This document shows positions 12,024 to 34,377 of a stretch of 34,427 nucleotides of DNA, piece after piece. How positions within the stretch are numbered: the stretch's first letter is position 1; each line of letters begins with the position of its first letter. Origin of the DNA: a virus; UHGV virus genome UHGV-0118447; one strand, given 5' to 3'. A model generated the notes under the pieces. It did not search any database. It was not told the origin of the DNA and saw only the letters and a list, made by a program, of their open reading frames with translations. A program made the translations under genes and the position numbers.

Positions 12024-12464
12024 ATGAAAAAACTAACCTTTGAAATTCGATCTCCAGCACATCAGCAGAACGCCATTCAAGCTATCCAGCAAATCCTTCC
12101 AGACCCAACCAAACCAATCGTAGTAACCATTCAGGAACGCAACCGCAGCTTAGACCAGAATCGAAAGCTTTGGGCTTGCCTTGGTGACGTCTCTCGTCAG
12201 GTTGAATGGCATGGTCGCTGGCTGGATGCAGAAAGCTGGAAGTGCGTTTTTACAGCAGCATTAAAGCAGCAGGACGTTGTTCCTAACCTTGCCGGGAATG
12301 GCTTTGTGGTAATAGGCCAGTCAACCAGCAGGATGCGTGTAAGCGAATTTGCGGAGCTATTAGAGCTTATACAGGCATTCGGTACAGAGCGTGGCGTTAA
12401 GTGGTCAGACGAAGCGCGACTAGCTCTCGAATGGAAAGCGCGATGGGGAGATCGGGCTGCATGA
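12024..12464 (+). CDS. ninB: NinB (Orf-family recombination mediator)
   Basis: 146 aa starting MKKLTFEIRSPAHQQNAI, lambda NinB-like; GGGGGAGAGGGAAG SD. Confidence 0.9.
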   Translation: MKKLTFEIRSPAHQQNAIQAIQQILPDPTKPIVVTIQERNRSLDQNRKLWACLGDVSRQVEWHGRWLDAESWKCVFTAALKQQDVVPNLAGNGFVVIGQSTSRMRVSEFAELLELIQAFGTERGVKWSDEARLALEWKARWGDRAA

Positions 12465-12988
12465 CTATCAAATCAAATACGCCAGCACACGACAAGGACT
12501 GCTGGCAAACTCCGCTTTGGCTTTTTGATGCACTGGATATTGAGTTTGGATTCTGGCTGGATTCGGCAGCGAGCGACAAAAATGCTCTGTGCGCTCACTG
12601 GTTAACTGAGGCCGACGACGCGCTAAATTCTGAGTGGATAAGCCACGGTGCAATCTGGAATAACCCACCGTACAGCAATATCAGGCCGTGGGTGGAAAAA
12701 GCCGCTGAGCAGTGCATACAACAGCGACAGACGGTAGTGATGCTTGTGCCAGAGGATATGTCTGTCGGATGGTTCAGCAAGGCTCTGGAGAGTGTTGACG
12801 AAGTTCGCATCATCACTGATGGACGGATTAATTTTATCGAACCATCGACAGGGCTGGAGAAGAAGGGAAACAGCAAAGGCTCCATGCTGCTGATTTGGCG
12901 ACCGTTCATCAGTCCTCGACGGATGTTTACTACCGTATCCAAAGCGGCATTGATGGCGATCGGGCAGGGCGTCAGGAGGGCGGCATGA
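12461..12988 (+). CDS. Phage DNA N6-adenine methyltransferase (Dam-like)
   Basis: NPPY catalytic motif ([10 protein letters not shown]); ATGA overlap with ninB; occupies the ninC position. Confidence 0.75.
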
Positions 12989-13161
12989 GACGACAGCGAC
13001 GAAGTATCACCGACATCATCTGCGAAAACTGCAAATACCTTCCAACGAAACGATCCAGAAATAAACGCAAGCCAATCCCAAAAGAATCTGACGTAAAAAC
13101 CTTCAACTACACTGCTCACCTGTGGGATATCCGGTGGCTAAGACATCGTGCGAGGAAATGA
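12985..13161 (+). CDS. ninE: NinE
   Basis: 58 aa starting [23 protein letters not shown], lambda NinE-like; AGGAGG SD; ATGA overlap. Confidence 0.85.
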
Positions 13162-27544: not shown

Positions 27545-28705
27545 ATGACGCAGGGCTTACCTGTATCCAACGTTGTAAACGTTGATGTGATCATCTCGCC
27601 GAAAGCGGCTACTGGTCGTAACTTCGGCGCGCTGCTGATCCTCGGTTCTTCCACTGTCATTCCAGTGCAGGAACGCGTCCGCCTTTATGCGTCCGTTGAG
27701 GACATTGGCGAGGACTTCGGAGTCGACAGCCCGGAATATGAAGCGGCGCAGGTTTTCTTCAGCCAGTCACCGAAGCCGACACAGGTTTATGTTGGTCGCT
27801 GGGCGAAGACGCTGAGTTCTTCCGAGAGTGGAGATACTGAAACTATCGTGCAAGCCGTTAATGCCTGCCTGCAATATACCAACTGGTATGGGCTGGTTGT
27901 CGCTGATGATGTTGTCGCTGGTGGCGATGTGCTTGATGCTGATGACGTGATTGAGGTCGCCAAACTTATTGAAGCGTCCAGCCTTAGCCGTATCTTTGGT
28001 GTGACCTCTGGTGACGCCGGGATTATCAGCACGACTTCAATGACCGATGTTGCGTCGAAATTAAAGGCTGGCAAGTTTTCCCGCACTTTCATTCAGTATT
28101 CCACCAGTAGCCCTTATGCAGCGGCTTCTGCGTTCGGTCGTGCGTTCACTGTTAACTTCAACGGCAGCAATACCACCATTACCCTGAAGTTCAAACAGGA
28201 GCCAGGCGTAACCTACGAAACGCTGACGTTAGGTCAGGCGGCGGCTGTGGATGCGAAGAATGCGAACGTGTTCGTGTACTACGCCAACGACACGGCGATC
28301 CTGCAACAGGGTGTCATGGCGAACGGTGACTTCTTCGACGAGCGCCACGGGCTCGACTGGTTGCAGAACTACGTTCAGACCAACCTCTATAACCTGCTTT
28401 ACACCAGCACCACCAAAATTCCGCAGACTGATGCCGGTGTGACCCGTCTGCTTTCCAACGTTGAACAGTCCATGGATCAGTCCGTCACGAACGGTCTGGT
28501 AGCGGCTGGCGTGTGGAATGGTGGCCCTATCGGGCAACTGAATTCCGGCGATACGCTGACAAAAGGTTATTACGTGTATGCGCAACCTCTTTCCGAGCAA
28601 GCACAGGCTGACCGAGAAGCACGCAAAGCGCCGTTAATCCAGGTGGCTTGTAAGCTGGCTGGCGCAGTTCATTACGCCGATGTGCAGATCAACGTGGTTC
28701 GCTAA
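27545..28705 (+). CDS. Major tail structural protein (sheath-like)
   Basis: 386 aa, GGAGAA SD, first gene of the tail block before the tube-like protein, chaperone and tape measure. Confidence 0.45.
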
Positions 28706-28715
28706 GGAGCGATAA

Positions 28716-29156
28716 ATGGCAACTTATTCTTTTCTCGATGTAACCGCGTCGCTCACCGGGCCGACCGGCGTTATCGATCTTGGTCAGGGTTCTGCGAACT
28801 CTGAGGAAGGTATCACCCAGACCATGGGCGGCAACAAAAACACCATGACCATCGGTGCCGACGGCGAGGTGATGCACAGCCTGCACGCCGATAAGTCAGG
28901 CACCATTACGGTGACGCTACTCAAAACCTCCCCGGTGAATAAAAAGCTGTCTCTGGCGTATAACGCGCAAAGCCAGTCCTCTGCCACCTGGGGCAATAAC
29001 GTGATCGTCATTCGCAACACGGCATCGGGTGATATTTCTACTGCGCGTTCGTGTGCATTCCAGAAACAGCCTGATTTCAATAACGCCAAAGAGGGCGGAA
29101 CCGTAGCCTGGGTATTCGATTGCGGCAAGATTGACCAGCTGCTCGGGGAGTTTTAA
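28716..29156 (+). CDS. Tail tube-like protein
   Basis: 146 aa, strong AAGGAG SD, directly before the chaperone genes. Confidence 0.45.
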   Translation: MATYSFLDVTASLTGPTGVIDLGQGSANSEEGITQTMGGNKNTMTIGADGEVMHSLHADKSGTITVTLLKTSPVNKKLSLAYNAQSQSSATWGNNVIVIRNTASGDISTARSCAFQKQPDFNNAKEGGTVAWVFDCGKIDQLLGEF

Positions 29157-29159
29157 CGC

Positions 29160-29585
29160 ATGGAATTCGAAATTAAAGGCGTGAAATATCGCACCGCAAA
29201 GCTCAGCGTTTTCGAACAGCTGAAGGTGTCCCGCAAGCTGTTGCCGGTTCTGGCCGGGATGGTTTCGGACTTCCGGAGCGTTCAGGAGAAGATCAGCAGC
29301 AAAGACACCGAAGGCGCGATGGCTACCATCCTGCCAAAGATTGCCAATGCTGTGTCCGATCTGAGTGATGGCGACGTGGACGCTATCCTGTTCCCCTGCC
29401 TTTCCGTTGTTTCACGCGAGCACATGAAAGGCTGGGTGCCGGTCTACCAGCATGGCGAAATGGCGTTTGACGATATCGACCTGCTTACCATGCTGCAACT
29501 GGTGGCGCGGGTGGTCGCCGACTCTCTGGGAAATTTTTTGCAAGGACTCCCTACCAGCGAGACGCCCACCCCGCCAGCGGAATAA
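29160..29585 (+). CDS. Tail assembly chaperone (G-like)
   Basis: 141 aa immediately upstream of the tape measure gene; slippery site near its 3' end. Confidence 0.6.
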   Translation: MEFEIKGVKYRTAKLSVFEQLKVSRKLLPVLAGMVSDFRSVQEKISSKDTEGAMATILPKIANAVSDLSDGDVDAILFPCLSVVSREHMKGWVPVYQHGEMAFDDIDLLTMLQLVARVVADSLGNFLQGLPTSETPTPPAE

Positions 29586-29773
29586 CCTTCAACAGCCTGC
29601 CGGGCGGTGAAGACTTTATTCTTCGTCCGGCGATTGCCTTCCATATTGACCAGAAAGACCTTAACAGCGGTGCGGTAGACCTTTGCCGCATCGCGCTTCT
29701 CAATGACTACCTCGACATGCGCGAGGATAACGACGCCCGGGTAGATAAATGGAGAGCGGCCAATGAGCGGTAA
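29160..29773 (+). CDS. Tail assembly chaperone -1 frameshift product (GT-like)
   Basis: Heptamer A_AAT_TTT at 29531-29537 in the zero frame; the -1 frame is open from there to TAA at 29771-29773, overlapping the tape measure start. Confidence 0.5.
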
Positions 29774-32030
29774 CGCAGATACGATTAAAGACTTCCTTGT
29801 TTCGCTGGGATTCGATATCGATCAGGCTGGCGCTAATAAGTTTGAAGCCGTGCTGAAAGGCGTTACCGCAAACGTTCTGAAGGTCGGCGCGGTGGTGGAA
29901 GGCGCAGCGCTGAGCATTGTCGGATTTACCACCCAGATCGCGAATGGTCTGGATAAAATTTACTGGGCATCCCAACGGACGGGGGCCAGCGTCCAGGGCA
30001 TCAAAGCGCTGGGCTATGCCGCGTCGCAAACCGGTGCCAGCGCCGAGTCGGCCATGTCCTCCCTCGAAGGGCTGGCCGGTTTCATGCGTAGCAATCCGGG
30101 GGCGGAAGGCTTCCTGAACCGTCTGGGTGTCCAGACCCGTGATGCCAGCGGAAAGATGCGTGATGCTGCGGCCATCTTTACTGGCGTTGGGCAAAAGCTC
30201 AACAACATGCCGTATTACCGCGCGAAGCAATACGCGCAGATGCTCGGCATCGATGAAAACACGCTGATGGCGATGCGGCGCGGCATGAATGGCTTTACCG
30301 CCGATTACCAGTCTATGCTGCAAAAGACGGGGTTCAACGCTGATAAGGCAGCCGTTCAGTCCAACAAATTCATGACGTCCATGCGCGGGCTTACGTCGCT
30401 GTTCGGCATTATGCGGGACAAGATCGGCTCAAACCTCGCTGGTGGTCTTGCTGGTTCGCTGGACAGCCTGCGGCGGCGCATCCTCGACAACTTCCCGAAG
30501 ATTGAAGAGACGCTGACCAGAGTTATTAAAGGCGTGATCTGGCTTGCGAACGCCTTCACGCGAATGGCGTGGCGGCTCATACAGGGCGCTGGCTCTGTCA
30601 TTGACTGGTGGAAGCGTCTTGACGATGGCAGTAAAAATCTGCTGAAAATATTCGGTGCTCTACTTGTCGCATGGCGTCTGCTTAATTCTGCGTTCCTGAA
30701 ATCCCCGATTGGAATTATCACCACGCTGATTCTGGCGATCGGATTACTCTATGACGATTATCAGACGTGGAAAGAAGGCGGTAAAAGCCTGATTGACTGG
30801 TCCAAGTGGGAGCCTGCAATAGAAAAGGCGAAAAAGGCAATTCTCTGGCTGCGCGATAAGCTTCTGGGGCTGAAAGATTCTGTTGGTGGATGGCAGAACT
30901 CGCTGGAAATTTTGGCTACTTTCATCGCTGGGGTATGGGTAACAAAAGTATTGGGAGCATTCGCAAAAATATCCGGTCTTCCGATACCTCCATGGCTTAA
31001 ATTATGGGGAGCGTATGCTGGTTACCTGGTTTCAGATCGTGAAAACATAAAAGCCAGTGCTAAATCATCTTTGGACTATACCAAAAGGAACATTGGTGAT
31101 GCTCTTGCTACGGTTGGCATCAAAACCGACCTTGGGCGAAAAGATGTTAGCGAGGTAAGAGAATGGCCCGCATGGATGGATTGGCTGCATGGTGGCCCAG
31201 GTAAGATTATTCGTCAGGCGCAAAGCAATGGCGTCGTTTATGGCGATAATGTTCAGCCTGACATTCCCGGGGCGGAACAGCATGTTCGTAGTAATGAAAT
31301 TGCCCCGCATGAAAGAGATGAAATAAAAAACCGTCAGCAGGCTGCTAATGGTTATCTTGAAAAGATCTCAGACGGGATTGCCAAAATCGGTAATTTACTT
31401 TTCTCACCTGCTGGTGCTGCTGAAATCTCTCCAAATATATCGGGTGACCCCTCCCAGTTTGCGCAATCAGTCAAACGTCCACAGGCCACAGCCCAGGGCA
31501 AAGTATTGCTCGACTGGATGGGGCCAATGTTCAATAAACTGGAGTCTCTTTATCAGCTGCCTGCTGGCTTGTTGAAAAGCGTGGCGATCACCGAGTCGGG
31601 TGGTAACCAGTTCGCTGTGTCCGGCGCAGGCGCGAAAGGACTGTTTCAGTTTATGGATGGCACGGCGCGCGACATGGGCCTGCGTGGGAATGATGTATTC
31701 GACCCGGAAAAGTCAGCTCAGGCAGCCGCTAAGTACCTTAGCCAGCTATTGCGGCAGAACGGCGGAGACCTTAGTAAAGCACTGGCATCATATAACTGGG
31801 GGATCGGGAATGTTAAGCGTTATGGAATGGGGCTAATGCCGCAGGAAACGCGCAACTACATTCCGAAAGTAATGAGCAACATGCCCACCAGCGCCCCGGT
31901 GATTCAGCAGGAAACGAACATTAACATCCACGGCGTTTCCGATCCTCGCGAAGCTGCCCGTTTGACTGTTGACCGTCAAAAGGGTGTGAATTCACAGTTA
32001 ACCCAGCAACTCCCCGCAGGACCGAGATAA
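29763..32030 (+). CDS. Tail tape measure protein with lytic transglycosylase (SLT) domain
   Basis: 755 aa; hydrophobic central segments; C-terminal region has an SLT-like motif (ESGGNQFAVSGAGAKGLFQFM...AAKYL). Confidence 0.8.
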   Translation: MSGNADTIKDFLVSLGFDIDQAGANKFEAVLKGVTANVLKVGAVVEGAALSIVGFTTQIANGLDKIYWASQRTGASVQGIKALGYAASQTGASAESAMSSLEGLAGFMRSNPGAEGFLNRLGVQTRDASGKMRDAAAIFTGVGQKLNNMPYYRAKQYAQMLGIDENTLMAMRRGMNGFTADYQSMLQKTGFNADKAAVQSNKFMTSMRGLTSLFGIMRDKIGSNLAGGLAGSLDSLRRRILDNFPKIEETLTRVIKGVIWLANAFTRMAWRLIQGAGSVIDWWKRLDDGSKNLLKIFGALLVAWRLLNSAFLKSPIGIITTLILAIGLLYDDYQTWKEGGKSLIDWSKWEPAIEKAKKAILWLRDKLLGLKDSVGGWQNSLEILATFIAGVWVTKVLGAFAKISGLPIPPWLKLWGAYAGYLVSDRENIKASAKSSLDYTKRNIGDALATVGIKTDLGRKDVSEVREWPAWMDWLHGGPGKIIRQAQSNGVVYGDNVQPDIPGAEQHVRSNEIAPHERDEIKNRQQAANGYLEKISDGIAKIGNLLFSPAGAAEISPNISGDPSQFAQSVKRPQATAQGKVLLDWMGPMFNKLESLYQLPAGLLKSVAITESGGNQFAVSGAGAKGLFQFMDGTARDMGLRGNDVFDPEKSAQAAAKYLSQLLRQNGGDLSKALASYNWGIGNVKRYGMGLMPQETRNYIPKVMSNMPTSAPVIQQETNINIHGVSDPREAARLTVDRQKGVNSQLTQQLPAGPR

Positions 32031-32960: not shown

Positions 32961-34025
32961 ATGTCTCTTAACTGGATGCGCCATTTTGAGCTGCAACTGT
33001 TGGACCAGAACGGGCAGGGCGTTTCCCTGTCTGATTTTAAGGTCACGTTCCAGATCGAGTGGGCAGATACACGCTGGCCGCGAGTGGCGAACGTGAAAAT
33101 TTACAACCTTTCGACCGATACCACGAACAAGATACTGGGGCAGGAGTTTGCAAAAATTCGCATCATTGCCGGGTATGACGGTATTGCGCCGGATGTTGAT
33201 GCGAGCCAGGTTGGTGTCGCCCGGGAGATTTCACCAGACCAGGTAGGGCAGGTGAACGGTCAGAACTACGGCCTGATATTTGACGGTGATATTCGCTTCA
33301 CCGTCACCGGGAAGGACAACATCACCGATTCCTGGGTGCTGATTCAGGCCATCAGTAACCACGAAGCGTTCCTCTACGCGACTACCATCACCACGCTTGC
33401 CGCTGGTTATACCGTTGCGGACCTGCACCGGGCGACGATGCAGGATTTCAACGCGTTCGGCGTGACGCAGGGCATTACCGGTGACTTTCCTGATACCGTG
33501 TTTCCTCGTGGCCGTGCGATTTATTCATCCACCCGTAACGTGATGGATAATATTGCTGCGCAGTGCAAAGCGACATGGCAACTGGTAGATGGTCAGGTCC
33601 AGATGGTGCCGGAGGATAAATATATTCACGAAGCCATTGTGTTGAATGCTGATACTGGCCTGATCGGTATGCCGCAACAGACTATGGGCGGCGGCGTAAA
33701 CGTGCGGTGCCTGATAAACCCCAACATTCGCATTAATGGTCTTATCCAGCTCGATCAGGCTTCGGTGTACCGCGCCGCGCTCGGTAATAGCGAAATCGCA
33801 CAGTCGCCCGGGCGTATCACCGAAACTGAAGAGAACGGCAACCGTGTGCTGACCGGCACGACGTCACAGGCTGCCAGCATTGCGACGGATGGCGTTTATA
33901 TCGTCAAAGCTATCGACTATACTGGCGACACCAGAGGTCAGGCGTGGTACATGGATTTGATGTGCTTTGCGCGTGGCAGTCGTGAATTATATAGTCAGTC
34001 GACGCTCCAAAAAGTACAGGTGTGA
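32961..34025 (+). CDS. Putative tail hub/baseplate protein (354 aa)
   Basis: AGGAG SD; position after the tape measure and small tail proteins. Confidence 0.5.
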   Translation: MSLNWMRHFELQLLDQNGQGVSLSDFKVTFQIEWADTRWPRVANVKIYNLSTDTTNKILGQEFAKIRIIAGYDGIAPDVDASQVGVAREISPDQVGQVNGQNYGLIFDGDIRFTVTGKDNITDSWVLIQAISNHEAFLYATTITTLAAGYTVADLHRATMQDFNAFGVTQGITGDFPDTVFPRGRAIYSSTRNVMDNIAAQCKATWQLVDGQVQMVPEDKYIHEAIVLNADTGLIGMPQQTMGGGVNVRCLINPNIRINGLIQLDQASVYRAALGNSEIAQSPGRITETEENGNRVLTGTTSQAASIATDGVYIVKAIDYTGDTRGQAWYMDLMCFARGSRELYSQSTLQKVQV

Positions 34026-34026
34026 T

Positions 34027-34377
34027 ATGACAAAAATTAGGAATGTTATCTGCGGAGCCGTTCTTTCGTTGGTCGGAGCTTCAACTGCAATGGCTGATAC
34101 CCAATGCGGGCCATATCGCCTCACCGCAGGTAATGATGGTTTTATGCATATTAATGGTGTAAAGCCAGAAAACCAGAAAATGACCTTTCTGAAAGCCAAG
34201 GAAGATTATCAAAATCTCAAGATGGAATGGACGGTTGCAACTAATCAACCCGGCCGCTGGGTTGGTCTTGAGTACATCAAGCGCAACGGCAAAGCCATTC
34301 TCAACGCTCAGTGGCTGCAAGCCAGCATGGATTCGCCGCGTCAGTATGCAACATACGACTGCCGAAAAGTAAAATAG
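34027..34377 (+). CDS. Secreted small protein with signal peptide (moron-like)
   Basis: MTKIRNVICGAVLSLVGASTAMA-D signal peptide with AxA cleavage site; lower GC than the flanking tail genes; GC hairpin right after the stop (about 34378-34400). Confidence 0.55.
   Translation: MTKIRNVICGAVLSLVGASTAMADTQCGPYRLTAGNDGFMHINGVKPENQKMTFLKAKEDYQNLKMEWTVATNQPGRWVGLEYIKRNGKAILNAQWLQASMDSPRQYATYDCRKVK

What the first reader, a model, noticed from the sequence alone, without database searches (positions are those of the whole stretch)
29531..29773. Programmed -1 frameshift site in the tail assembly chaperone
In the chaperone reading frame the sequence G_GGA_AAT_TTT_TTG contains the X_XXY_YYZ heptamer A_AAT_TTT at 29531-29537. 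The -1 frame is open from this point for about 80 codons to a TAA at 29771-29773, overlapping the tape measure start at 29763. This is the lambda G/GT arrangement in a non-lambda tail module; the heptamer is not one of the most commonly cited slippery sites.
Basis: seen in the sequence. Interest (0 to 1): 0.5.

Follow-up and report, generated by a model that had tools for sequence, protein, structure and literature searches.

The report
Tail chaperone frameshift site, prophage
A prophage tail-assembly chaperone gene carries a very well conserved slippery stretch where some ribosomes should slip back one base and add a second domain; this is the ordinary, well-known phage "G/GT" arrangement, here in a family where genome annotation usually misses it.

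Summary
A_AAT_TTT lies at 29531-29537 in phase with the chaperone gene (29160-29585). The -1 frame then runs 78 codons to TAA at 29771-29773, overlapping the tape-measure ATG at 29763.

The tract is CTG GGA AAT TTT TTG (29528-29540), three overlapping in-phase heptamers: G_GGA_AAT, A_AAT_TTT and T_TTT_TTG.

Evidence from 77 non-redundant relatives (down to ~50% protein identity):
- The four codons are almost fixed: GGA 74/77, AAT 73/73, TTT 76/76, TTG 72/73. The same amino acids elsewhere in the gene use mixed codons.
- A -1 ORF of 60-65 codons follows in 76/77.
- The -1 frame peptide FFARTP is conserved from the first codon after the tract.
- The extension is Pfam DUF6889. In the window it has no usable start codon.

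No conserved downstream RNA structure exists. An upstream SD-like GGTGG is a possible stimulator.

Each heptamer is the only one left in some lineage, so the slipping codon pair cannot be fixed by computation.

The closest analogue by gene order is P2 E/E+E', which slips at TTTTTTG. GenBank already annotates the frameshift in phages Mulock and Magia.

Verdict: a real, ordinary programmed -1 frameshift with no experimental proof here. It is a new member of a known kind and of low interest.

The parts
29160..29585 (+). Gene G: tail assembly chaperone, 141 aa, the product of normal (frame 0) translation
   Evidence: ORF. Pfam PF21822 Phage_TAC_15, E = 4.4e-33, 114.9 bits against a cut-off of 22. 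phrog_1688 tail assembly chaperone, E = 1e-56.
29528..29540 (+). Composite slippery tract G_GGA_AAT_TTT_TTG, made of three overlapping in-phase X_XXY_YYZ heptamers at 29528-34, 29531-37 and 29534-40
   Evidence: In 77 non-redundant relatives the codons are GGA 74/77, AAT 73/73, TTT 76/76, TTG 72/73. Synonymous pair difference is 0.00-0.08 here against a mean of 0.54 upstream. All three heptamers are present in 67/77.
29531..29537 (+).
   Evidence: In phase. Present in 72/77 relatives. The homologous X_XXT_TTT is the only heptamer in Burkholderia phages Magia and BgManors32 (C_CCT_TTT). It falls in the class H_HH.U_UU.Y, which is efficient in E. coli (PMC4066793).
29537..29773 (+). -1 frame extension (T part): 78 codons plus TAA. 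It holds the DUF6889 domain and overlaps the tape-measure start by 11 nt
   Evidence: Translation. Pfam PF21829 DUF6889, E = 1e-10, 41.6 bits against a cut-off of 23.9. phrog_4364, E = 1.3e-16. The -1 frame peptide FFARTP is conserved from the first codon after the tract. The ORF is 60-65 codons past the G stop in 76/77 relatives.
29510..29514 (+). Candidate upstream SD-like stimulator GGTGG (inferred, not shown)
   Evidence: It matches GGNGG, one of the SD-like stimulators listed in PMC4066793. [quoted passage not shown] It is present at that spacing in 66/77 relatives against 12% of control positions. Val118 is GTG in 71/77, with synonymous difference 0.15 against 0.45-0.74 at other Val columns. 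Shared ancestry and the R-V-V peptide could explain much of this.
29763..32030 (+). Tape measure protein with a C-terminal SLT lytic transglycosylase domain, the presumed client of the chaperone
   Evidence: phrog_2276, E = 1e-219; Pfam SLT, E = 3.4e-25.
28716..29156 (+). Tail tube protein (context)
   Evidence: Pfam PF11681 KPP10_Orf10, E = 5.8e-60. PGAP calls the E. coli orthologue a DUF3277 family protein.
27545..28705 (+). Tail sheath protein (context)
   Evidence: Pfam DUF3383, E = 1.6e-102; phrog_205 tail sheath, E = 2.7e-128.

Best explanation
The window is a SEN34-like temperate myovirus prophage. Its tail genes run sheath, tube, chaperone, tape measure.

Proposed mechanism:
- Most ribosomes translate the chaperone gene to its TAA at 29583-29585 and make the 141-aa protein G.
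- A minority slip back one nucleotide on CUG GGA AAU UUU UUG (29528-29540).
- These continue in the -1 frame to TAA at 29771-29773 and make a 204-aa fusion, GT. Its last ~78 residues include the DUF6889 domain.

The slip can use any of three in-phase heptamers. tRNA-Phe on UUU is the likely key player, either in the A site (A_AAU_UUU) or in the P site (U_UUU_UUG). A slip on either of the first two heptamers gives the junction ...LGNFFARTP.... A slip on the third gives ...LGNFLARTP....

No downstream RNA structure is involved. An upstream GGUGG may pair with 16S rRNA and help.

By analogy with lambda G/GT and P2 E/E+E' (inferred, not tested), G and GT in a fixed ratio coat the tape measure protein and recruit tube subunits, and neither stays in the virion.

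Shown here: the anatomy, and the conservation of the tract, of the -1 ORF and of its peptide.

Inferred: that slippage happens at all, its rate (about 3-10% by analogy), which heptamer is used, and the chaperone roles.
For: 1. Gene identity and position: Phage_TAC_15, between the tube and tape-measure genes.
2. The -1 ORF is real coding sequence: DUF6889 and phrog_4364.
3. The -1 frame has no ATG/GTG/TTG until 29719, which would leave 18 aa. PGAP has to use an ATA start for its separate 'DUF6889 family protein'.
4. In 77 non-redundant relatives the tract codons are nearly fixed, while flanking codons and the same amino acids elsewhere vary freely.
5. Changes just after the tract are non-synonymous in frame 0 (Q/P/H/K/R) but keep A-R-T-P in the -1 frame, with Arg encoded by both AGR and CGN. 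Selection therefore acts on the -1 frame from the tract onward.
6. Distant phages keep an in-phase heptamer at the homologous spot with different letters: C_CCT_TTT (Burkholderia), G_GGT_TTT plus T_TTT_TTC (Ralstonia), G_GGA_AAT (Bordetella), T_TTT_TTT (Providencia).
7. In L034 a -1 frame TAG lies immediately 5' of T_TTT_TTT, which pins the shift to the tract.
8. A rare T7 allele makes an in-frame fusion with exactly the predicted junction, LGNFFA.
9. GenBank records for phages Mulock and Magia annotate a 'tape measure chaperone frameshift product' for the orthologous genes.
10. P2 slips at TTTTTTG, reportedly without a downstream structure (PMC3091744).
Against: - There is no experimental evidence for this element or any close relative. 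Neither the Mulock nor the SEN34 paper mentions the frameshift.
- No conserved downstream stimulator was found, so efficiency may be low.
- By the E. coli survey, two of the three heptamers (G_GGA_AAU and U_UUU_UUG) are not in the most efficient class.
- The relatives were collected with peptide patterns that include DSLGN(FL). That biases amino-acid conservation at the site, though not codon choice.
- The sequences are related, so the counts are not independent events.
Confidence: 0.85

Rival explanations
1. The DUF6889 ORF is a separate small gene with its own initiation, as PGAP annotates it (63 aa, starting at the ATA at window 29582). No recoding is involved.
For: - RefSeq annotates a stand-alone 'DUF6889 family protein' in every listed hit of the two searches of complete E. 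coli genomes (116 and 337 records matched).
- 35 of 77 relatives have some ATG/GTG/TTG in the -1 frame between the T-run and 15 codons past the G stop.
Against: - In the window and in 42/77 relatives there is no canonical start in that interval. The window's first is the ATG at 29719, only 18 codons from the end.
- Where start codons exist, their positions differ between loci (+2, +14, +38, +47 and others).
- No SD precedes the ATA.
- The -1 frame peptide is conserved upstream of the annotated start, right back to the slippery tract.
- This reading does not explain the fixed synonymous sites of the tract.
Confidence: 0.05
2. Transcriptional slippage: RNA polymerase adds one U on the T6 run, giving a fraction of mRNAs in which G and T are in one frame.
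For: - A T6 or T7 run is kept in 76/77 close relatives.
- The run is mutable at the DNA level, since T7 alleles give in-frame fusions.
- UUUUUUU is under-represented in E. coli genes, and one suggested reason is transcriptional slippage (PMC4066793).
Against: - From general knowledge, six T is shorter than the runs of about 8-9 or more usually needed for productive slippage by bacterial RNA polymerase.
- Distant relatives keep an in-phase heptamer with only T4 or A3 (CCCTTTTA in Burkholderia; GGGAAATA in Bordetella and in Salmonella L070). That fits tRNA re-pairing, not polymerase stuttering.
- The tract's phase relative to frame 0 is conserved, which matters only for ribosomes.
- GGA and AAT are also fixed at synonymous sites.
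Confidence: 0.05
3. Nothing functional: the open -1 frame and the heptamers are leftovers or chance, and only G is made.
For: - The heptamer alone is not above chance.
- Some relatives are clearly decayed prophages: L031 has a truncated -1 ORF, L067 a T part fused to other sequence, and L078 a truncated G.
Against: - The -1 ORF is a Pfam and PHROG family found next to TAC genes in many genera.
- It keeps its length in 76/77 relatives.
- The tract shows the lowest synonymous variation of the whole gene; only codon 2, next to the start codon, is comparably low.
Confidence: 0.03

Closest known systems
Bacteriophage P2 E / E+E' tail chaperone frameshift (Christie et al. 2002; Xu, Hendrix & Duda 2004, as cited in PMC3091744)
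   Same: - It is a contractile-tail phage with the gene order sheath, tube, chaperone with a -1 extension, tape measure.
- The -1 ORF lacks a start and overlaps the tape-measure gene start.
- P2 slips on TTTTTTG, which is the third heptamer of the tract here (29534-29540).
- P2 is reported to have no downstream RNA structure, and none was found here.
   Different: - No sequence relationship was detected. The window protein matches only Phage_TAC_15 and DUF6889 in Pfam.
- The tract here carries two more in-phase heptamers 5' of TTTTTTG, and these are also fixed at synonymous sites.
- P2 frameshifting was measured: I recall about 10% from Christie et al. 2002, and the review read here says only 2- to 3-fold above lambda. 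Nothing has been measured for this element.
Bacteriophage lambda G / GT (Levin, Hendrix & Casjens 1993; Xu et al. 2013, 2014; reviewed in PMC5009743)
   Same: [quoted passage not shown]
- The first heptamer here, G_GGA_AAT, resembles lambda's G_GGA_AAG (lambda's site is from my own knowledge).
- The presumed roles are the same: G binds the tape measure and T recruits the tube subunit.
   Different: - Lambda has a non-contractile tail.
- There is no Pfam match to lambda G or T families.
- The A-site codon is AAU (Asn) rather than AAG (Lys), which is a poor shifter in E. coli by the rules in PMC4066793.
Orthologous genes of Klebsiella phage Mulock (MN098327) and Burkholderia phage Magia (NC_070954)
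   Same: - They belong to the same protein families and have the same gene order.
- Mulock has the identical GGGAAATTTTTTG tract.
- Both records carry a joined CDS annotated as 'tape measure chaperone frameshift product'.
   Different: - These are annotation-only predictions, and the Mulock paper does not mention the frameshift.
- Magia has a single heptamer, C_CCT_TTT.
- The window's closest records are either unannotated (Citrobacter phage Omnitron) or split into two genes by PGAP.
E. coli dnaX frameshift (SD-like element upstream of the heptamer)
   Same: A possible upstream SD-like element, GGUGG, lies 14-17 nt before the first two heptamers. That is within the window shown to be stimulatory in E. 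coli (PMC4066793).
   Different: - dnaX also has a strong downstream hairpin and uses A_AAA_AAG (from my own knowledge).
- Here the SD-like element is only a sequence match and is confounded with the conserved R-V-V peptide.

Membership tests
G/GT-type tail assembly chaperone with programmed -1 frameshift (Xu, Hendrix & Duda 2004) | The gene pair lies between the major tail (tube) gene and the tape-measure gene | tested here: met
   Tube 28716-29156, G 29160-29585, T extension to 29773, tape measure 29763-32030.
G/GT-type tail assembly chaperone with programmed -1 frameshift (Xu, Hendrix & Duda 2004) | The second ORF overlaps the 3' end of the first in the -1 frame and lacks its own initiation signal | tested here: met
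   The -1 frame is open over 29471-29770. The first ATG/GTG/TTG is at 29719. There is no conserved start across relatives.
G/GT-type tail assembly chaperone with programmed -1 frameshift (Xu, Hendrix & Duda 2004) | An in-phase X_XXY_YYZ slippery heptamer lies inside the overlap | tested here: met
   Three are present, at 29528-29540.
G/GT-type tail assembly chaperone with programmed -1 frameshift (Xu, Hendrix & Duda 2004) | The site and the two-ORF arrangement are conserved among relatives despite sequence divergence | tested here: met
   77 non-redundant loci plus six distant phages.
G/GT-type tail assembly chaperone with programmed -1 frameshift (Xu, Hendrix & Duda 2004) | Both G and the GT fusion are actually produced, in a set ratio | not testable with these tools
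   This needs a reporter assay, western blot or mass spectrometry.
G/GT-type tail assembly chaperone with programmed -1 frameshift (Xu, Hendrix & Duda 2004) | Both products are required for tail assembly and are absent from virions | not testable with these tools
   This needs genetics and virion proteomics.
Pfam Phage_TAC_15 (PF21822) | Whole-protein score above the gathering threshold | tested here: met
   114.9 bits against 22, covering 121 of 127 profile positions.
Pfam DUF6889 (PF21829) | Whole-protein score above the gathering threshold, for the -1 frame extension | tested here: met
   41.6 bits against 23.9, residues 165-200 of the fusion.
P2 GpE / lambda GpG protein families (sequence membership) | A detectable Pfam match to those families | tested here: not met
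   Only Phage_TAC_15 and DUF6889 were reported at E <= 0.01. The likeness to P2 and lambda is in arrangement and mechanism, not in detectable sequence.
Frameshift sites with a downstream RNA stimulator (IS3/IS911, dnaX, viral pseudoknots) | A conserved hairpin or pseudoknot lies 4-10 nt after the heptamer | tested here: not met
   - Single-sequence folds give z = -0.7.
- RNAalifold finds 0 pairs in 45 sequences.
- By a Sharma-type hairpin rule, no type is shared by more than 10/77 loci, and none is found in the window-type sequence.
- There is no Rfam hit.
- Pseudoknots were not searched explicitly.

The most novel reading that the evidence does not exclude
The 13-nt tract may be a deliberately redundant, three-in-a-row slippery site. 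Ribosomes would get three consecutive chances to slip (G_GGA_AAU, then A_AAU_UUU, then U_UUU_UUG). Together with an upstream SD-like GGUGG, this would set the G:GT ratio without any RNA structure.

Two observations point this way:
- Each heptamer is the sole survivor in some lineage: Bordetella and Salmonella L070 keep the first, Burkholderia the second, and Erwinia, Kalamiella, Providencia and Limnobaculum the third.
- GGA and AAT are fixed at synonymous sites even though they lie 5' of the most widely kept heptamer.

So more than one heptamer may be in use.
Probability: 0.35. Interest if true: 0.4.

Novelty: new member of a known kind. Interest (0 to 1): 0.25.

Why it matters
Practically, it matters for annotation. 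RefSeq/PGAP splits this gene into a 'phage tail assembly chaperone' and a free-standing 'DUF6889 family protein' with an ATA start. This was so in every listed hit of two searches of 5,426 complete E. coli genomes, which matched 116 and 337 records. Pfam still calls the second part a domain of unknown function.

The evidence here says DUF6889 is the 'T' part of a G/GT-type chaperone, joined by a -1 slip.

Biologically, it adds one more tail type (the E217/KPP10/Pam3-like sheath-tube-baseplate set) to the list of phages that keep this recoding. It also offers a compact natural test case of overlapping heptamers without an RNA structure. It does not change what is known about frameshifting or tail assembly.

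Tried and rejected
- **Downstream stimulator.** Nothing conserved was found by single-sequence folds, RNAalifold on 45 diverse sequences, a Sharma-type hairpin scan on 77 loci or Rfam.
- **A local GGGA...UCCC pairing around the tract.** Considered and dropped: it shows no covariation, and the conserved ACUCCC is explained by Thr-Pro in the -1 frame.
- **PDB sequence search.** No relative was found.
- **Finding which junction GenBank uses for Mulock.** Exact look-up of both possible fusion proteins found neither in the collection.
- **In-frame fusions as strong 'Rosetta stone' proof.** Weakened, because the closest complete E. coli genomes have T6, not T7 (641 of 642 bases). The T7 forms may be rare mutants or homopolymer errors. 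P0001 and P0105 are plainly error-ridden translations.
- **A second candidate site.** G_GGA_AAC at 12865 in the Dam methylase gene was rejected: the -1 ORF is NinE, with its own ATG at 12985 and the SD AGGAGG.
- **The Mulock and SEN34 papers.** Neither mentions the frameshift.

Full report
**What the window is.** The region is the tail module of a temperate myovirus prophage.
- It is 98% identical over the queried 701 bases to Citrobacter phage Omnitron, whose record has no annotation.
- The same 701 bases matched 116 complete E. coli chromosomes, 37 of them at 95-99% identity over at least 80% of the query.
- It is about 70-79% identical to the chaperone region of Salmonella phage SEN34 (Brunovirus), Klebsiella phage Mulock, Hafnia phage yong1 and others.
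- The genes in order are sheath (27545-28705, DUF3383/phrog_205), tube (28716-29156, KPP10_Orf10), chaperone (29160-29585, Pfam Phage_TAC_15 at E = 4e-33, phrog_1688) and tape measure with an SLT domain (29763-32030). Dit-like, Pam3 gp18-like plug and hub proteins follow.
- No promoter and no + strand terminator separates these genes.

**Checking the observation.** The frame-0 codons at the site are CTG GGA AAT TTT TTG.
- AAATTTT at 29531-29537 is therefore in X_XXY_YYZ phase.
- The -1 frame is open from 29471 to the TAA at 29771-29773, which is 78 codons after the heptamer. It overlaps the tape-measure ATG (29763) by 11 nt.
- The heptamer alone is not unusual, at 5 copies in the window against 8.9 expected.
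- In-phase heptamers are rare, however: 25 in 14,537 ORF codons. This is the only place in the window where such a site leads into a long -1 ORF that has no start of its own.
- The other candidate, at 12865, leads into NinE, which has its own ATG and SD.

**Is the -1 ORF real coding sequence, and does it have its own start?**
- The extension matches Pfam DUF6889 (41.6 bits, above the 23.9 cut-off) and phrog_4364.
- In the window the first ATG/GTG/TTG in that frame is at 29719, only 18 codons from the end.
- PGAP annotates the E. coli orthologue as a separate 63-aa 'DUF6889 family protein' whose start codon is ATA.
- Among 77 non-redundant relatives, 42 have no canonical start between the T-run and 15 codons past the G stop. 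Where a start exists, its position varies.

**Comparative evidence.** Relatives were collected from one genome per species of GTDB (80 loci, 47-99% protein identity, many genera of Enterobacterales), from IMG/VR (80 loci) and from GenBank phages. After removing sequences above 92% nucleotide identity, 77 remained.
- The -1 ORF extends 60-65 codons past the G stop in 76 of 77.
- The four codons of the tract are GGA 74/77, AAT 73/73, TTT 76/76 and TTG 72/73.
- The same amino acids elsewhere in the gene use mixed codons. Examples are Phe103 (TTT 42, TTC 34), Gly99 (GGC 30, GGG 15, GGT 10, GGA 7), and Leu columns dominated by CTG.
- The fraction of same-amino-acid pairs that differ in codon is 0.00-0.08 for codons 124-130, against a mean of 0.54 upstream. 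This is the lowest stretch in the gene; only codon 2, next to the start codon, is comparably low (0.08).
- Immediately after the tract, frame 0 varies (Q/P/H/K/R, then E/G/A/V) while the -1 frame keeps F-F-A-R-T-P. Arg is encoded by both AGR and CGN. Selection on the -1 frame therefore begins at the tract itself, not further downstream.
- Caveats: the search patterns contained DSLGN(FL), which biases amino acids but not codons, and the sequences share ancestry.

**Which heptamer?** Among the 77 loci, all three heptamers are present in 67. Individually, A_AAT_TTT is in 72, G_GGA_AAT in 68 and T_TTT_TTN in 76. The lineages that have lost some are informative:
- Only T_TTT_TTN remains in Limnobaculum (L034), Erwinia (L042, L084), Kalamiella (L065) and Providencia phage PSTCR3. 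In L034 a -1 frame TAG sits directly 5' of it.
- Only G_GGA_AAT remains in a Salmonella prophage (L070) and in Bordetella phage IFTN9.
- Ralstonia has G_GGT_TTT plus T_TTT_TTC, and Acinetobacter Ab105-1phi has G_GGA_AAT plus A_AAT_TTT.

Each heptamer thus seems able to carry the function alone.

The systematic E. coli measurements of Sharma et al. 2014 place H_HH.U_UU.Y, which includes A_AA.U_UU.U and C_CC.U_UU.U, among the most efficient classes. The reason given is that the A-site tRNA re-pairs cognately. G_GG.A_AA.U and U_UU.U_UU.G are not in that class (PMC4066793). On the other hand, P2 is known to slip on TTTTTTG (PMC3091744).

I conclude that the shift occurs within 29528-29540 and that tRNA-Phe on UUU is the common element. 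Computation cannot say more. A slip on heptamer 1 or 2 gives LGNFFAR, and a slip on heptamer 3 gives LGNFLAR.

**Stimulators.**
- No downstream structure was found. Single-sequence folds are no better than shuffles (z = -0.7).
- RNAalifold predicts no pair in 45 diverse sequences.
- A hairpin scan with the rules of Sharma et al. finds none in the window-type sequence and no type shared by more than 10 of 77.
- Rfam finds nothing. This matches what is reported for P2.
- Upstream, GGTGG at 29510-14 fits the GGNGG class of SD-like stimulators. [quoted passage not shown]
- It is present in 66/77 relatives against 12% of control positions, and Val118 is GTG in 71/77.
- This is a lead only. The conserved R-V-V peptide and common descent may account for it.

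**Rivals.**
- Independent initiation is unlikely, for the reasons given above under the -1 ORF.
- Transcriptional slippage on T6 is unlikely. The run is short, distant relatives keep an in-phase heptamer with only T4 or A3, and the phase relative to frame 0 is conserved.
- In-frame G-T fusions with T7 exist: Logan contig L004, and the 16-member cluster of P0002, which includes E. coli ISC7 CDL28562.1. They have exactly the predicted junction.
- However, the nearest complete genomes have T6, so I treat the T7 forms as rare mutants or homopolymer errors.

**Comparison with what is known.** The arrangement is the G/GT recoding conserved in long-tailed phages (Xu et al. 2004; review PMC5009743).
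- By gene order and tail type the nearest studied case is P2 E/E+E', which slips on a heptamer that forms part of this tract.
- There is no detectable sequence membership in the P2 or lambda chaperone families.
- Within this protein family, GenBank already carries joined 'frameshift product' CDSs for Mulock and Magia. The Mulock paper does not discuss it (the Magia paper was not looked up).
- SEN34 and the PGAP annotation of the E. coli orthologues inspected lack the joined CDS.
- The genomic screen of Sharma et al. did not include any of the three heptamers among its 21 search patterns.

**Verdict.** The finding is real and correctly interpreted in substance. It is an ordinary example of a well-known recoding event and is unproven experimentally for this element. 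Its value lies mainly in annotation, since DUF6889 is the T part of the chaperone. There is also a small mechanistic curiosity in the three overlapping heptamers, each sufficient in some lineage.

Noticed in passing
window 29582-29773; L001 1983-2174: RefSeq/PGAP annotates the -1 extension as a free-standing 63-aa 'DUF6889 family protein' with an ATA start. This was so in every listed hit of two searches of complete E. coli genomes, which matched 116 and 337 of 5,426 genomes. It looks like a systematic mis-annotation of a frameshift product.
   Followed up: partly
L004 1893-1909 (Logan SRR23924998); protein cluster of P0002: A T7 allele of the tract (GGGAAATTTTTTTG) makes an in-frame 213-aa G-T fusion with junction LGNFFA. 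The 16-member cluster includes E. coli ISC7 CDL28562.1. The closest complete E. coli genomes have T6, so these are rare mutants or homopolymer errors.
   Followed up: partly
window 12865-12871 and 12985-13161: An in-phase G_GGA_AAC lies in the Dam methyltransferase gene (12401-12988), with a long -1 ORF after it. That ORF is NinE, with its own ATG at 12985 (an ATGA overlap with the Dam stop) and the SD AGGAGG. It is ordinary gene overlap, not recoding.
   Followed up: yes
window 34027-34377 (ORF listed as 33967-34377): A 116-aa ORF starting from the ATG at 34027 has a signal-peptide-like N-terminus (MTKIRNVICGAVLSLVGASTAMA) and no Pfam match. It sits right after the baseplate hub gene. At about the same place the E. 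coli ECONIH5 relative carries a hypothetical gene followed by a Phd/Doc toxin-antitoxin pair, so this may be a variable cargo slot.
   Followed up: no
L070 (Salmonella enterica s1, CP191473) and L168 (Bordetella phage IFTN9): In these two the T-run is broken (GGA AAT ATT TTG and GGA AAT ACT TTC). G_GGA_AAT is the only in-phase heptamer left, yet the -1 ORF is intact at 62 and 64 codons past the G stop.
   Followed up: partly
L031, L067, L078: These are decayed copies. In L031 the -1 ORF is cut to 22 codons. In L067 the T part is fused after about 50 residues to unrelated sequence, with the tape measure apparently deleted. In L078 the G ORF is cut short at 47 aa.
   Followed up: no
window 29746-29765: The last conserved residues of the T part (K-W-R, AAATGGAGAG) also encode the Shine-Dalgarno sequence GGAG for the tape-measure ATG at 29763. 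The T stop lies 11 nt inside the tape-measure gene, which suggests translational coupling.
   Followed up: no
L172 (E. coli ECONIH5 NZ_CP026202, 720145-760845): In this E. coli relative the prophage is interrupted upstream of the head genes by other mobile DNA: an integrase, a TOPRIM/DUF927 primase-like gene and an IS5 transposase.
   Followed up: no
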